Counted from the stretch's first letter, positions 19,777 to 23,649 are shown. The stretch is DNA of 44,156 nt from Candidatus Hermodarchaeota archaeon (GCA_048885525.1 JBHLLP010000009.1:57233-101388); one strand, 5' to 3'. Numbers and translations are program-made. Notes: generated by a model from the sequence alone, not told the origin.

Positions 19777-19888
19777 AATGAAATTCTTAATAAAAATTGC
19801 TTAAAAAGATTAAAAAGGCGTAACTTTAATGTTTTTCTTTTCCAAAAATATAAAATTATTAAACAAACAAAAAATACATTATAATAGT

Positions 19889-20257
19889 ATGGAAAATCAA
19901 CCCAATATTGAAGAGTTAAAATCTAAAATAAGTTTAGGAATAAAATTTTGGTTAGAATTTGACAATAAAAGTATATTGGGTTCAGGATGGGCGGAACTGT
20001 TAAAAAATATTGAAAAAAACAAAGATGGTTCTTTAACTCAAGCAGCGAAAGAATGTAATTATTCATATAAATACGCATGGAATATATTAAAACGAATAGA
20101 AAAAAGAACAGGGAAATCGGTAGTGATAACAGGCAAAGGAGGACGTGGTGGAGGTGGTTGGGTACAATTAAATGATTGGGGGCTTTATCTCTTAGAAACT
20201 TACAATGAATATCTCAGAGAATTAACAAAAATTGAAAAAAGCTTAGAGAAACGATAA
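19889..20257 (+). CDS. ModE-type winged-helix regulator (DNA-binding domain only)
   Basis: LLKNIE..GSLTQAAKECNYSYKYAW.ILKRIE...GGRGGGG..LND.G; ATG at 19889 preferred. Confidence 0.88.
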   Translation: MENQPNIEELKSKISLGIKFWLEFDNKSILGSGWAELLKNIEKNKDGSLTQAAKECNYSYKYAWNILKRIEKRTGKSVVITGKGGRGGGGWVQLNDWGLYLLETYNEYLRELTKIEKSLEKR

Positions 20258-20359: not shown

Positions 20360-20785
20360 ATGGACGATCGATTAGAGCAATTCAGTAAGATAAAAGTATC
20401 CAATATAATGATTAAAGATCCACTTTTTACACTCCCAAATGAAAAAATTAGTGCTACTGAACTTATAATGGTAAGGAAAAATATTGGTGGACTTCCAGTC
20501 GTAAATGATAGTAAGAATAAAATACTTATAGGCATTATCACCCAAAGAGATATACGTCTCGCTAGATTTGCGATGAATTTAAATTCACCAAATATAATTG
20601 TTAAGGATTTAATGACACCTGAACCTTTTGTTGTAAAAAAAGATGACACTGTAAAGTATGTTTTAGAGATTATGTTTGACAAAAAAATACAAAGATTACC
20701 AGTTGTAAATGATAATAATGAATTAATAGGTTTAGTAATACAAAATATGATCTTAAAAACTCTTCTTGAATTTTTTCAAAAATAA
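20360..20785 (+). CDS. CBS-pair protein
   Basis: IGGLPVVN...LIGIITQRDI; IQRLPVVN..ELIGLV. Confidence 0.92.
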   Translation: MDDRLEQFSKIKVSNIMIKDPLFTLPNEKISATELIMVRKNIGGLPVVNDSKNKILIGIITQRDIRLARFAMNLNSPNIIVKDLMTPEPFVVKKDDTVKYVLEIMFDKKIQRLPVVNDNNELIGLVIQNMILKTLLEFFQK

Positions 20786-20879: not shown

Positions 20880-22394
20880 ATGGCACTACCCTTACCTGGA
20901 ACACCAATTATAATTGATATTGGCTCTGCATATGTCAAAATTGGATTTTCAGGAGAACCTGGACCTAGATTTGTATTTCCTTGCATTACAGGGACTGAAA
21001 AATATAAATCTGTAATGGTTGATGTTAGTGCTAGAAGTATTTATGTTGGAAACGATGTGTCTCGCATGCGGGGTGTTCTTAAAATTAAACATCCATTAAG
21101 TCGTGGTGAAATTATGGACTGGGACAGTTTCTATGAAGTCTTAAATTATATTTTTTATTCACTACTTAGAATAGAAAATCTTTCTAATTATCCAGTATTC
21201 TATTGTGAAACTCCCTTTATGCATAGAGATACTAAAGAATATATTGCACGACTTTTTTTTGAAACTCATCAAGTAAAAAGCCTAATTATGATGCAAACTC
21301 CATTGTTGTCCTTATTTAGTGTTGGTTTAACAACTGGGTTAGTAATTGAGAGCGGAGATGGATTAACTTGGATCGTGCCAATAATTAATGGACAGATAAT
21401 TCAACATGCAGTTCAGAAACTTCCATTAGCGGGTGTTGATGTTAATCAAAACTTAAAGAGTCTATTAATGAGAGAAGGAGTTAGTATTTCTTCCAGTGCA
21501 GCAGATGAGATTATTCAAGAAATAAAAGAGAAGAATTGTTATTTTGTATTGGATCCTAGCATCCCCACAAAACCAGGAGAAATGTTCAGTGTTTCGATGC
21601 CAGATGGTTCAACTATTAATGTTCCAACTTATATTCTCTATCAAGCCCCAGAAGTATTATTTAATCCAGTCATGCTAGGTTATGCAAATATTATGAATAT
21701 ACCTCAAGCAGTTATTGCCAGTATAAGAGCAGTAGACAATAATTATTGGCATAAGCTTTTATCTCATATTGTATTTTCAGGCGGAAATCTTTCATATAGC
21801 GGTTTTCAAGAACGTTTTGAATCAGAGTTGAATCCTCTCCTTCCTCAACTAGGTAAAATTCCCAAACCAGTTGCACCTCTTTCAGCAGTAAAAAGTGAAT
21901 TAATAAAGCTACAAGCTGTTGAAATCTCAAAAAAGCGAGATGATACTTGTCCCCATTGTGGCAATTTTGTAAATCTAAGTGATGGAAAAGAATTATGTCC
22001 TTCTTGTGGTGGGGTATTAGTCTTACCAGAAATAAAATTAGGAGTTTCAAGTCAAAAGGATGAAAGAAAAGGTAAATGTTCACATTGTTTGAAAGAATTT
22101 TCTGATGTATCTTCACTTTTTTGTCCTTATTGTGGAAAACCTATAGAAGCTTTAGAGTCCGCTGAAATCCCAGAAGAAATTACAAAAAAAACACCTGCTC
22201 AAGAATTTTCTGAATTAATGGAATCTGCTAATAAAGTAATCAAATTCTTTGTTCCCGATAATCTTCAATTTGCTATTTTTACTGGAGCAGCAATTTTAGG
22301 GAGTTTACCCTCTTTCCAACAAATGTTTGTTACTTATGAACAATTTCAAACAAACAGAGAATTGTTATATAGAGATATTAGCGAAATTCTTTAA
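20880..22394 (+). CDS. Actin-related protein with double zinc-ribbon insertion
   Basis: IIDIGSAYVKIGFSGE..PRFVFP, VIESGDG, EIKEK, PDG, APEVLFNP, SGGN, GAAILGSL. CxxC x4 insert at aa ~323-452. Confidence 0.92.
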   Translation: MALPLPGTPIIIDIGSAYVKIGFSGEPGPRFVFPCITGTEKYKSVMVDVSARSIYVGNDVSRMRGVLKIKHPLSRGEIMDWDSFYEVLNYIFYSLLRIENLSNYPVFYCETPFMHRDTKEYIARLFFETHQVKSLIMMQTPLLSLFSVGLTTGLVIESGDGLTWIVPIINGQIIQHAVQKLPLAGVDVNQNLKSLLMREGVSISSSAADEIIQEIKEKNCYFVLDPSIPTKPGEMFSVSMPDGSTINVPTYILYQAPEVLFNPVMLGYANIMNIPQAVIASIRAVDNNYWHKLLSHIVFSGGNLSYSGFQERFESELNPLLPQLGKIPKPVAPLSAVKSELIKLQAVEISKKRDDTCPHCGNFVNLSDGKELCPSCGGVLVLPEIKLGVSSQKDERKGKCSHCLKEFSDVSSLFCPYCGKPIEALESAEIPEEITKKTPAQEFSELMESANKVIKFFVPDNLQFAIFTGAAILGSLPSFQQMFVTYEQFQTNRELLYRDISEIL

Positions 22395-22548: not shown

Positions 22549-23649
22549 TTGAAGCAAAAATATAAGAGTTTTACAATTTTTGCATTTATATTGCTTTTAG
22601 CATTAATTGCAATTCCAGGTGTATTAGGAAAAACTAGACGTGTCTATTTAACTAGTTTTATATTAGAAAATGAAATTGAAGGAGTAGGATTTTCCAATGC
22701 TATTGATAACGATAATACAGTATCTTTTGAAGCAACAGCTTATGCTTTGAATATTCTAAAGAATTATGGAATAGATCCTCATGATATTGAGACCCTTAAA
22801 ACTAATTTGGAAGACGACATTGAACAATTACTAAATAGTATTGAAGTAAATATCTATGATTTATTCTATTTAATGAAATCCCTTAATATTGTTGATCAAG
22901 ATTATGAAATTGATCAAAGTTTAGAAAATAGAATATATAAATTTGTTAATGATACGGGACAGATAGGCGGTGGGTTCTCTTACTCAAATACATCCAGCTC
23001 AGAAAATTTAGCTTCTACATATTATGCTCTTCAGCTTTACTCATTAATTGATGAACCTATTGCAAACATGACATTACATAAAAATTGGGTTTTATCCTGT
23101 AATAATAGTGATGGAGGATATGGAGGAAATCAAAGTTTATCCTCTACGTTAGCAAATACTTATTATGCCATCTCAATTTTAAATGAATTAGACTCAGTTA
23201 ATGATTTAGTTAATATTAATAATACATTATCTTATCTTCAATCTCATTATGTTCTAGATTCAGCAGATCTTACCAATTACGGGGGATATTTGCCCGATGA
23301 GTTTGCTCAATTTGCTTTGTTGAGTAGTACTTATTTTTGTGTTAAAGCCGTTTCTTTAATGGATGATACCAAATTATTTAAACATAGTATAACAACATGG
23401 GTATTATCACGACAGAATATCATAGATGGTGGATTTGCAGAGAACACTGGAGGGTATCAACAAAAAGCTTCCTCAGTTATAGCTTGTTATTATGCATTCG
23501 AGACATTAAAAACTTTAGATTCCTTATATAGTTTAAATGATGAAATATGGATGGTAGAATTTAATTATTGGATCTTAATAATTGTGTTAGGTTCTATTGG
23601 TTTAGGTATTGTAGCCTTGGTTTATCTTTGGAGAAGGAGAAGAATATAA
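22549..23649 (+). CDS. Secreted, C-terminally membrane-anchored prenyltransferase/squalene-oxidase-repeat (alpha/alpha toroid) protein
   Basis: Signal peptide; repeats WVLSCNNSDGGYG..TYYA and WVLSRQN..DGGFA..CYYA; C-terminal TM followed by RRRR. Confidence 0.8.
   Translation: MKQKYKSFTIFAFILLLALIAIPGVLGKTRRVYLTSFILENEIEGVGFSNAIDNDNTVSFEATAYALNILKNYGIDPHDIETLKTNLEDDIEQLLNSIEVNIYDLFYLMKSLNIVDQDYEIDQSLENRIYKFVNDTGQIGGGFSYSNTSSSENLASTYYALQLYSLIDEPIANMTLHKNWVLSCNNSDGGYGGNQSLSSTLANTYYAISILNELDSVNDLVNINNTLSYLQSHYVLDSADLTNYGGYLPDEFAQFALLSSTYFCVKAVSLMDDTKLFKHSITTWVLSRQNIIDGGFAENTGGYQQKASSVIACYYAFETLKTLDSLYSLNDEIWMVEFNYWILIIVLGSIGLGIVALVYLWRRRRI

What the first reader, a model, noticed from the sequence alone, without database searches (positions are those of the whole stretch)
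20880..22394. Actin-related protein with a ~130-aa double zinc-ribbon insertion and substituted ATP-hydrolysis residues
Seen: a full actin fold with a D-loop-like KYKSVMVDVS. Between ERFESEL and IKFFVP (actin ADRMQKEI..IKIIAP) lies an insert with CPHC..CPSC and CSHC..CPYC (nt ~21846-22235). In ungapped alignment actin Gln137 is Thr140 (QTPLLSL vs IQAVLSL) and His161 is Trp164 (LTWIVPI vs VTHTVPI). Known: Q137 and H161 position the catalytic water, and Arp3 has a shorter insert at this loop. Inference: a hydrolysis-poor ARP acting as a nucleator, cap or adaptor rather than the main Lokiactin.
Basis: partly seen in the sequence, partly recalled or inferred. Interest (0 to 1): 0.75.

Follow-up and report, generated by a model that had tools for sequence, protein, structure and literature searches.

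The report
Asgard actin relative with zinc-ribbon insert
This is a real, strongly conserved actin-like protein found in one order of Loki-type Asgard archaea; it lacks actin's ATP-splitting residues, carries two small zinc-binding modules in a filament-contact loop, and is almost always encoded next to a surface membrane protein, so it is probably an accessory or anchoring part of the archaeal actin skeleton that nobody has yet tested.

Summary
Window 20880..22394 (+) encodes a 504-aa actin-fold protein. Its subdomain-3 loop, equivalent to actin 322-325, carries a ~124-aa insert with two CxxC...CxxC zinc ribbons.

- **Not a chimera.** More than 120 clusters at 63-88% identity share this architecture. 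A profile of the insert finds it in 128 of 130 well-assembled genomes of the window's order (one other ribbon-only hit, in a 1239-aa frame), and none in the 7 genomes from other orders of the class.
- **Catalytic residues.** Across 130 members, actin Gln137 is Thr/Ser/Ala (never Gln) and His161 is Trp in 121. The phosphate-binding residues are invariant.
- **Gln139.** The window's Gln139 is Pro in most members, so it is no substitute for Gln137.
- **Paralogy.** The family is monophyletic, sister to a 374-aa Asgard paralog, and lies outside Lokiactin plus eukaryotic actins.
- **Published ortholog.** By exact primer match it is Ca. L. ossiferum UYP44711.1, an unnamed "ARP" measured by RT-qPCR. 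I found no paper describing the insert.
- **Neighbour.** A type-I membrane protein with a prenyltransferase-like toroid ectodomain lies immediately downstream across the order.

Function is inferred: most likely a slow-hydrolysing terminal or anchoring subunit of the Lokiactin cytoskeleton. The scan has already met this family on other genomes.

The parts
20880..22394 (+). Whole gene: 504-aa zinc-ribbon actin-related protein (ZnARP), including the stop codon
   Evidence: Orthologs at 63-88% identity, 501-510 aa.
20880..21860 (+). N-terminal actin-fold part (residues 1-327): subdomains 1, 2, 4 and most of 3
   Evidence: Pfam Actin 9-325. AF2 pLDDT mostly above 90. Foldseek TM about 0.9 to actins.
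20991..21050 (+). D-loop region (G38-G57, GTEKYKSVMVDVSARSIYVG); nearly invariant in the family
   Evidence: Family conservation 0.88; 47% identical to Lokiactin against 36% overall.
21294..21299 (+). Q139-T140. T140 occupies the actin Gln137 position. Q139 is Pro in most members.
21369..21371 (+). W164 at the actin His161 position
   Evidence: W in 121 of 130 members.
21861..22232 (+). Insert of ~124 aa (residues 328-451) within the actin 322-328 loop of subdomain 3
   Evidence: (alignment break). dN/dS 0.21-0.22 against 0.06 for the core.
21948..22007 (+). Zinc ribbon 1: C357-x2-C360 ... C373-x2-C376
   Evidence: Pfam Zn_ribbon_3 356-380. Cys invariant. pLDDT 73-79.
22077..22133 (+). Zinc ribbon 2: C400-x2-C403 ... 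C415-x2-C418. Absent in one sub-clade (family f4).
   Evidence: Pfam DZR_2/DUF7575 393-425..
22197..22208 (+). A440-Q-E-F443: conserved acidic-aromatic [AS]-x-E-[FY] motif in the acidic, low-confidence tail of the insert
   Evidence: E442 and F443 are invariant in A1. The motif is present in all diverged members.
22233..22391 (+). C-terminal actin-fold part (residues 452-504): re-entry strand IKFFVP and the cleft helix ILGSLPSFQQMF
22549..23649 (+). Conserved downstream neighbour: 366-aa membrane protein. It has an N-terminal signal or anchor, a prenyltransferase-beta-like alpha/alpha toroid, a C-terminal TM helix and a 4-8-aa basic tail.
   Evidence: Pfam PF00432 1e-18. AF2 pLDDT 86 and Foldseek hits to RabGGTase/GGTase3 beta. 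Adjacent in 26/27 close loci and 6/7 distant loci, and order-wide by coordinates.

Best explanation
**Shown.** The gene encodes a single-copy actin-related protein. Among the genomes sampled it is confined to one order of Lokiarchaeia-type Asgard archaea, where it is nearly universal. That order includes Ca. L. ossiferum and a 4.36-Mb single-contig genome, G026. The protein has a complete actin fold with intact phosphate-binding loops. It lacks the Gln137/His161 pair and His73. Two flexibly tethered zinc ribbons plus an acidic tail with a conserved [AS]xE[FY] motif are inserted in the subdomain-3 loop, which in F-actin contacts subdomain 4 of the neighbouring subunit.

**Inferred mechanism.**
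- It binds ATP but turns it over slowly.
- It uses its well-conserved D-loop/subdomain-4 face and hydrophobic cleft to dock onto Lokiactin.
- Its own subdomain-3 longitudinal patches are relaxed and occupied by the insert. It therefore cannot propagate a normal filament on that side, and acts as a terminal subunit (a barbed-end cap or anchor).
- The ribbon and tail module is a tethered binding arm. The most likely targets are the membrane or the short basic cytoplasmic tail of the co-encoded surface protein. This would link actin filaments to the cell envelope.
For: - **Architecture and conservation:**
- **Distribution:** f1 115/117, f2 11/11 and f4 2/2, against 0/7 in other orders of the class. 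The one hit elsewhere in the phylum (about 194 genomes) is ribbon-only.
- **Nucleotide site over 130 sequences**: D11, K18, G156, G158, G301, G302, K213 and E214 are invariant. Q137 is T/S/A, H161 is W in 121, H73 is R in all 130, and D154 is E in 127.
- **Role of Q137/H161:** Q137 hydrogen-bonds the attacking water and the Q137A filament has low ATPase. The H161 flip triggers hydrolysis (PMC10062479).
- **Insert site:** residues 322-325 contact 243-245 of the adjacent subunit (PMC7247010).
- **Face analysis**, family conservation against 0.81 overall:
  - pointed face 0.88 (random sets reach this in 0.9% of draws);
  - cleft helices 0.89 (2%);
  - W-loop plus subdomain-3 patches 0.69 (lower than all 10,000 random sets).
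  - Identity to Lokiactin is 0.50, 0.52 and 0.23 respectively, against 0.37 overall.
- **Selection:** the insert is under purifying selection (dN/dS 0.21-0.22).
- **Model:** AF2 gives folded ribbons on low-confidence linkers.
- **Gene pair:** the membrane protein is adjacent across the order, even where the ARP is only 34-45% identical.
- **Transcript measured:** the ortholog UYP44711.1 was one of four actin homologues assayed by RT-qPCR; Lokiactin's level was severalfold higher.
- **Precedent:** inserts in Arp3 carry complex-specific functions (PMC4947185).
Against: - No binding, ATPase or localisation data exist.
- The identity differences between faces are modest (p about 0.06-0.08).
- The hydrophobic cleft on the barbed side is itself well conserved, so that face is not simply lost.
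- The partner's cytoplasmic tail is only 4-8 residues, little to bind.
- Weaker full-length homologs of the membrane protein occur in Asgard lineages that lack the ARP.
- One genome (G027) has the ARP without the neighbour.
- The two genes are 74-154 bp apart, so co-transcription is not established.
Confidence: 0.35

Rival explanations
1. It forms a second, separate filament system. It would polymerise with itself through D-loop-into-cleft contacts, with the ribbons decorating the filament surface and nucleotide turnover slow.
For: The D-loop and the cleft helices are both conserved above the family average, as expected if they bind each other. Many prokaryotic actin-like filaments tolerate different catalytic residues (general knowledge).
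Against: The subdomain-3 longitudinal patches and the W-loop are the least constrained parts of the core. The 124-aa insert sits in the 322-325 contact. In L. ossiferum, Lokiactin transcript was severalfold higher than that of the other actin homologues, and the filaments seen there were attributed to Lokiactin.
Confidence: 0.2
2. It regulates Lokiactin monomers or nucleation. It would bind Lokiactin monomers as a template or sequestering partner. The ribbons would serve regulation or stability and would not be a membrane link.
For: The pointed face and the cleft are retained. The protein sits close to actin in sequence and fold.
Against: No ARPC2 or ARPC4 homolog was found in this genome, although that search had no positive control. 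This reading gives no account of the order-wide gene pairing.
Confidence: 0.15
3. It is a non-cytoskeletal ARP, comparable to the nuclear Arps of eukaryotes. The actin fold would be a nucleotide-dependent scaffold in another complex, and the zinc ribbons would bind nucleic acid or another protein.
For: Zinc ribbons of this kind are common in transcription and translation factors. One source names a family member 'RPABC4/Spt4'. A small HTH protein lies directly upstream in 3 of 7 distant loci, and one gene further upstream (beyond a CBS gene) in the window.
Against: The filament-contact D-loop is nearly invariant, which a non-cytoskeletal role does not require. The best-conserved neighbour is a membrane protein, not a nucleic-acid factor.
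Confidence: 0.12
4. It is an assembly chimera, or a decaying pseudogene in which a zinc-ribbon gene landed by accident.
For: None beyond the unusual architecture.
Against: The same architecture, with no in-frame stops, occurs in more than 120 protein clusters and 128 of 130 genomes of the order. dN/dS is 0.06 for the core and 0.21 for the ribbons. All eight Cys are invariant.
Confidence: 0.01

Closest known systems
Ca. Lokiarchaeum ossiferum 'ARP' GenBank UYP44711.1 (Rodrigues-Oliveira et al. 2022, PMC9834061, Fig. 5d,e)
   Same: Ortholog. The paper's RT-qPCR primers 361F and 731R for UYP44711.1 match exactly inside the insert-bearing ARP gene of G162, a 6.04-Mb single contig. The actin plus zinc-ribbon architecture is the same and the toroid gene lies downstream.
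   Different: About 35% identical to the window's protein, with a longer and more basic linker after ribbon 2. The paper treats it only as an unnamed ARP in a tree and an RT-qPCR assay. It does not mention the insert or the catalytic substitutions.
Lokiactin / bona fide actin (Pfam PF00022; PDB 9wc4 'HC1 actin', 1yag)
   Same: Full actin fold, with Foldseek TM about 0.9. Phosphate-binding loops, a D-loop with the hydrophobic V-M-V core, and the hydrophobic cleft helices are retained.
   Different: 36% identity. Q137, H161 and H73 are replaced. There is a 124-aa insert in the 322-325 contact loop, and the W-loop and the 283-294 patch have diverged. It forms a separate clade.
The 374-aa Asgard actin paralog (this genome: G000 C45, locus L001)
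   Same: Sister clade in the tree (SH-aLRT 94). It also lacks Q137 and H161. It is present across the same order.
   Different: It has no insert. Its second phosphate loop is degenerate (G158 is S or A; D157 is A in 3 of 5), whereas the ZnARP keeps it. It is 33% identical.
Eukaryotic Arp3 (Arp2/3 complex)
   Same: An actin-fold protein whose insertions in the actin core carry complex-specific functions, and whose tail can occupy its own barbed-end groove (PMC4947185). From memory only: Arp3 has an insert in the equivalent alphaK/beta15 loop.
   Different: No zinc ribbons. Arp3 keeps the catalytic Gln and His (from memory). No ARPC2 or ARPC4 was found here. Orthology was not tested and is unlikely, given the sister relation to an Asgard-only paralog.
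DZR / Zn_ribbon_3 double zinc-ribbon modules (Pfam PF12773, PF13248)
   Same: Two CxxC...CxxC knuckle pairs of typical spacing. Zn_ribbon_3 scores 31.9 bits (cut-off 27) and DZR 25.8 bits (cut-off 27.3).
   Different: Here the module is inserted inside an actin fold instead of standing at a terminus or alone. The family itself has no established ligand.

Membership tests
Actin family (Pfam PF00022, ASKHA fold) | Profile score above the curated cut-off | tested here: met
   228.7 bits against a cut-off of 27.
Actin family (Pfam PF00022, ASKHA fold) | Four-subdomain actin fold | tested here: met
   AF2 core pLDDT above 90. Foldseek TM about 0.9 normalised to actin chains.
Actin family (Pfam PF00022, ASKHA fold) | Phosphate-binding loops and adenosine motif residues (D11, K18, G156, G158, G301, G302, K213, E214) | tested here: met
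   All are invariant in 130 family members.
Bona fide actin / Lokiactin | Catalytic Gln137 and His161 | tested here: not met
   T140 and W164 in the window. 0 of 130 members have Gln and 2 of 130 have His. Seven Lokiactins keep both.
Bona fide actin / Lokiactin | Uninterrupted subdomain-3 loop 322-325, used in the longitudinal contact | tested here: not met
   A 124-aa insert lies between the positions aligned to actin 327 and 325/326. The contact role comes from PMC7247010.
Bona fide actin / Lokiactin | Membership of the Lokiactin clade | tested here: not met
   Separate clade with support 100, sister to the 374-aa paralog.
Bona fide actin / Lokiactin | Forms double-stranded filaments | not testable with these tools
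   Needs biochemistry or cryo-EM.
Arp2/3-complex Arp3 | Orthology to eukaryotic Arp3 in a tree with named Arp1-10 | not tested
   No named Arp2 or Arp3 sequence was obtainable. The eukaryotic rows in the tree are actins and ArpT2-like proteins.
Arp2/3-complex Arp3 | Accessory subunits ARPC2 and ARPC4 encoded in the genome | tested here: inconclusive
   No match to PF04045 or PF05856 in G000. The control genomes hold no positives either.
Double zinc ribbon (Pfam DZR PF12773 / Zn_ribbon_3 PF13248) | Two pairs of CxxC knuckles, and a profile score above the cut-off | tested here: met
   Zn_ribbon_3 scores 31.9 against 27. DZR scores 25.8 against 27.3, just under, in the window, but passes in relatives. 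All eight Cys are invariant.
Double zinc ribbon (Pfam DZR PF12773 / Zn_ribbon_3 PF13248) | Actual zinc binding | not testable with these tools
   Needs metal analysis of purified protein.

The most novel reading that the evidence does not exclude
The zinc-ribbon ARP and the co-encoded surface protein with a prenyltransferase-like toroid form a transmembrane linker. This linker would fasten the ends of Lokiactin filaments to the cell envelope and surface structures of Lokiarchaeia. It would be an archaeal, independently evolved counterpart of eukaryotic actin-membrane adaptors, built from an actin paralog itself.
Probability: 0.15. Interest if true: 0.85.

Novelty: new variant of a known kind. 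Interest (0 to 1): 0.6.

Why it matters
[quoted passage not shown] So far only Lokiactin, profilins and gelsolins have been studied. The extra actin paralogs appear in the literature only as unnamed branches in a tree.

This family shows that at least one order evolved its own specialised ARP, by inserting a zinc-ribbon arm into a filament-contact loop and giving up the hydrolysis residues. That parallels how eukaryotic Arps diverged from actin.

It provides a concrete, cloneable candidate for a filament-end or membrane-anchoring factor. Ca. L. ossiferum, whose ortholog is UYP44711.1, is available as an enrichment culture. A conserved partner gene offers a second handle for testing.

Tried and rejected
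- **Complex prediction.** The Lokiactin plus ZnARP job was not folded, because my alignments held eukaryote-like rows. It gives no evidence either way, and I did not try to get round it.
- **Literature.** Searches for the insert found nothing relevant. Liu et al. 2013 on Arp3 inserts (PMC3537046) is not held, so the Arp3-loop parallel stays unverified.
- **Gln139 as substitute for Gln137.** Rejected: it is Pro in most members.
- **Chimera or pseudogene.** Rejected.
- **'Only one stacking face is kept'** (a lead from earlier notes). Only partly borne out. The pointed face is kept, but so are the barbed-side cleft helices. Only the W-loop and the subdomain-3 patches are relaxed.
- **Strict co-distribution of the neighbour with the ARP.** Not met. 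Weaker full-length toroid homologs exist in other Asgard families.
- **Close-relative synteny**. Uninformative, because the whole region is syntenic. The distant loci carry the signal.
- **Antisense ORF 21712..22116 (-).** Found in only 3 of 27 loci, so it is spurious.
- **NCBIfam.** Only far-sub-threshold crenactin and syringactin hits.

Full report
**1. Observation**

The window holds an ORF at 20880..22394 (+) of 504 aa. Pfam Actin matches at 1.3e-67 over residues 9-325, with a second short stretch near the C-terminus. Zinc-ribbon models (Zn_ribbon_3, DZR, DZR_2, DUF7575) match within 356-425.

phmmer against PDB aligns residues 10-327 with actin 8-327 and residues 452-491 with actin 325-364. 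The best hit is 9wc4 'HC1 actin', followed by many actins and Arp1. The insert is therefore residues ~328-451 (nt 21861-22232). It sits in the loop that corresponds to actin 322-328.

In the same alignment actin Gln137 faces T140, with Q139 one residue earlier, and His161 faces W164.

**2. Real gene, conserved family**

A word-indexed search returned more than 120 clusters at 63-88% identity. All are 501-510 aa and all are annotated with Actin plus zinc-ribbon domains. Sources name them 'zinc ribbon domain-containing protein' or 'actin-related protein' of Promethearchaeota.

An exhaustive search of 50%-identity representatives added diverged members at 36-61% identity (P0121-P0127). Each has its ribbon or ribbons right after Pfam-actin position ~354.

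In 21 close members all eight Cys and W164 are invariant, and position 139 is Pro in most.

Among 130 members:
- Position 137 is T114/S14/A2.
- Position 161 is W121/F3/H2/T2/S1.
- His73 is Arg in all.
- Asp154 is Glu in 127.
- D11, K18, G156, G158, G301, G302, K213 and E214 are invariant.

Seven Lokiactins keep Gln137, His161 and His73. dN/dS over 60 pairs is 0.06 for the core, 0.21 for the ribbons and 0.22 for the linkers. dS is near 1 and the pairs are not independent, so these are rough values. They still show purifying selection on the insert.

**3. Distribution and paralogy**

This genome (3.58 Mb, 87 contigs) has three actin-family genes: this one, a 373-aa paralog (33% identical) and a 400-aa paralog (23%).

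Same-genus genomes mostly have four. The extra one is a 381-aa Lokiactin scoring ~441 bits against Pfam Actin. It is missing from this assembly, probably through an assembly gap, because in relatives it often lies on short contigs or at contig ends.

A profile of the insert plus the C-terminal part (A4) was searched in genomes at least 80% complete:

| Group | Genomes with a match |
|---|---|
| Family f1 (the window's own) | 115/117 |
| Family f2 | 11/11 |
| Family f4 | 2/2 |
| Other orders of the class | 0/7 |
| Rest of the phylum | 1 of ~194 (ribbon-only match in a 1239-aa ORF) |

The gene is single copy.

Members of f4 (P0125, L033, L035) have one ribbon. All the others have two.

An IQ-TREE (PMSF, 45 rows) makes the family monophyletic with SH-aLRT 100. 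The one-ribbon clade is sister to the rest. The whole family is sister to the 374-aa paralog (94). Both lie outside the group of Lokiactin plus eukaryotic actins (92). The eukaryotic rows were identified by their database names. No named Arp2 or Arp3 was available, so the relation to Arp1-10 is untested.

**4. Published counterpart**

The RT-qPCR primers printed for UYP44711.1 in the Ca. L. ossiferum paper match exactly inside the insert-bearing ARP gene of G162, a 6,035,313-bp single contig. G162 is therefore that organism, and UYP44711.1 is the ortholog.

The paper shows it as an unnamed ARP in its tree. It reports that Lokiactin transcripts were severalfold higher than those of the other actin homologues. 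It says nothing about an insert or catalytic residues.

Full-text searches for an Asgard actin with a zinc ribbon found nothing relevant.

The scan's own earlier notes show that other agents met the same family on other genomes. I used them only as leads.

**5. Anatomy of the insert**

1. A conserved exit linker, LLPQLGxIPxP.
2. A short helix (334-341).
3. Ribbon 1: C357/C360...C373/C376.
4. A conserved LPEIKI stretch.
5. A variable, mildly basic linker.
6. Ribbon 2: C400/C403...C415/C418.
7. An acidic tail (net charge -6 here, family median -3), holding a conserved [AS]-x-E-[FY] motif (A440-F443).
8. The re-entry strand IKFFVP.

In the AF2 model (50-row alignment, mean pLDDT 81.6) the core is above 90 and the ribbons are 73-79. 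The linkers 334-350, 383-395 and 425-450 are below 50. The ribbons therefore look like folded beads on flexible tethers. I had no access to coordinates, so where they pack is unknown.

**6. Which actin surfaces are kept**

I used a Strongyloides actin row for numbering, checked at DNGSG, Q137 and H161. I then compared the ZnARP consensus with the Lokiactin consensus. The residue sets are my recollection of published F-actin contacts. The 322-325/243-245 contact and the D-loop contacts are stated in PMC7247010.

| Surface | Identity to Lokiactin | Family conservation | Random-set comparison (family conservation) |
|---|---|---|---|
| Whole core | 0.37 | 0.81 | n/a |
| Pointed face (D-loop, 61-65, 200-208, 241-247) | 0.50 | 0.88 | reached by 0.9% of random sets |
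| Barbed-side cleft helices (139-149, 345-356) | 0.52 | 0.89 | reached by 2% |
| W-loop plus subdomain-3 patches (165-172, 283-294, 320-330) | 0.23 | 0.69 | lower than all 10,000 random sets |

The protein therefore keeps the D-loop/subdomain-4 face and the hydrophobic cleft. It has relaxed exactly the subdomain-3 longitudinal contact into which the insert is placed. This qualifies the earlier notes' 'only one face kept'.

**7. Nucleotide chemistry**

Q137 hydrogen-bonds the attacking water, and Q137A filaments have low ATPase. Flipping of H161 toward ATP triggers hydrolysis (PMC10062479). With Thr and Trp at these positions and intact phosphate loops, ATP binding with slow hydrolysis is the natural inference. 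It remains only an inference.

**8. Gene neighbourhood**

The gene immediately downstream (22549..23649, +) encodes a 366-aa protein with four parts:
- an N-terminal hydrophobic signal or anchor;
- a prenyltransferase-type alpha/alpha toroid (PF00432, 1e-18);
- a C-terminal TM helix;
- a 4-8-residue basic tail ending in R-I or K-L.

Its AF2 model has pLDDT 86. The best Foldseek hits are RabGGTase and GGTase3 beta subunits, with TM about 0.7. By the positive-inside rule the toroid faces outward.

It is adjacent and co-oriented in 26 of 27 close loci. That alone is uninformative, because the whole region is syntenic there. It is also adjacent in 6 of 7 loci from other families of the order, where the ARP is only 34-45% identical and most other neighbours differ. 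The exception is G027.

I compared the coordinates returned by the two order-wide searches. The strong toroid ortholog lies within a few hundred bases downstream of the ARP, on the same strand, in essentially every genome that has both. This includes G026, G165 and L. ossiferum (G162). The exceptions are G244 (2.2 kb apart) and G243 (contig ends).

Weaker full-length toroid homologs (E 1e-16 to 1e-36) occur in Asgard families without the ARP. The membrane protein is therefore older or more widespread than the ARP, and does not depend on it.

**9. Explanation**

- **Shown:** a conserved, order-specific, single-copy ARP with a tethered double-ribbon arm in a filament-contact loop, lacking the hydrolysis pair, and genomically paired with a surface membrane protein.
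- **Inferred, about 35%:** it docks on Lokiactin through its retained D-loop/subdomain-4 face and cleft. It cannot pass on the normal longitudinal contact on its subdomain-3 side, so it acts as a terminal subunit (cap or anchor). Its ribbon and acidic-tail arm binds a partner, most plausibly at the membrane.
- **Rivals:** its own filament system (about 20%), a nucleator or monomer regulator (about 15%), a non-cytoskeletal ARP whose ribbons bind nucleic acid (about 12%), and an artefact (about 1%).
- **A further speculation:** the [AS]xE[FY] motif might occupy the protein's own barbed-end groove, as the Arp3 C-terminal tail does (PMC4947185). Nothing here tests that.

**10. Verdict**

The gene is already in databases and in one published tree. 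Its defining features (the insert, the substitutions and the gene pair) are undescribed in the literature I could search. I class it as a new variant of a known kind, of solid interest for Asgard cell biology. Its function still has to be established at the bench.

Noticed in passing
Whole genome G000 (window = C9:57233-101388): The assembly is rated 99.3% complete but has no canonical Lokiactin gene: tblastn with a same-genus Lokiactin finds only the three diverged paralogs. In contrast, 15 of 18 same-genus genomes have one. In relatives it often lies on very short contigs or at contig ends, so an assembly gap is the likely cause.
   Followed up: partly
L001:1483-2601 (-) = G000 C45:12991-14079: The 373-aa actin paralog is the sister clade of the zinc-ribbon ARP and is even more degenerate at the nucleotide site. 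Q137 is Asp, H161 is Arg, and the second phosphate loop reads EIGDSNTR in place of DSGDGVTH (G158 is Ser or Ala across the paralog family). It may not bind nucleotide normally.
   Followed up: partly
window 22549-23649 (+): The membrane protein has an outward-facing toroid whose model most resembles eukaryotic Rab geranylgeranyltransferase / GGTase3 beta subunits. It also gives a weak Pfam hit to the Ribophorin II N-terminal domain (E 0.004). An extracellular prenyltransferase-like toroid has no obvious enzymatic role. Strong orthologs are confined to the ARP's order and weaker homologs occur elsewhere in Asgard.
   Followed up: partly
window 19829-20257 (+) and 20360-20785 (+): A 142-aa protein with a weak LysR-type HTH hit lies upstream of the ARP. 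It is directly adjacent to the ARP in 3 of 7 distant loci. In this window a tandem-CBS protein lies between them.
   Followed up: no
Other f1 genomes, e.g. G219:C83:9256-9537, G265:C28:12949-13242, G228:C99:3559-3783: The insert profile also hits the double-ribbon part of separate ~490-503-aa reading frames in several genomes of the family. The match usually reads through one to three in-frame stops. No such match was reported for this genome in that search. It is not known what these are.
   Followed up: no
L038:9936-12962 (G027): An MCM-like helicase ORF of 1008 aa near the ARP locus of G027 appears to carry a large internal insertion with homing-endonuclease-like sequence, a possible intein. 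I saw this only in the ORF translation.
   Followed up: no
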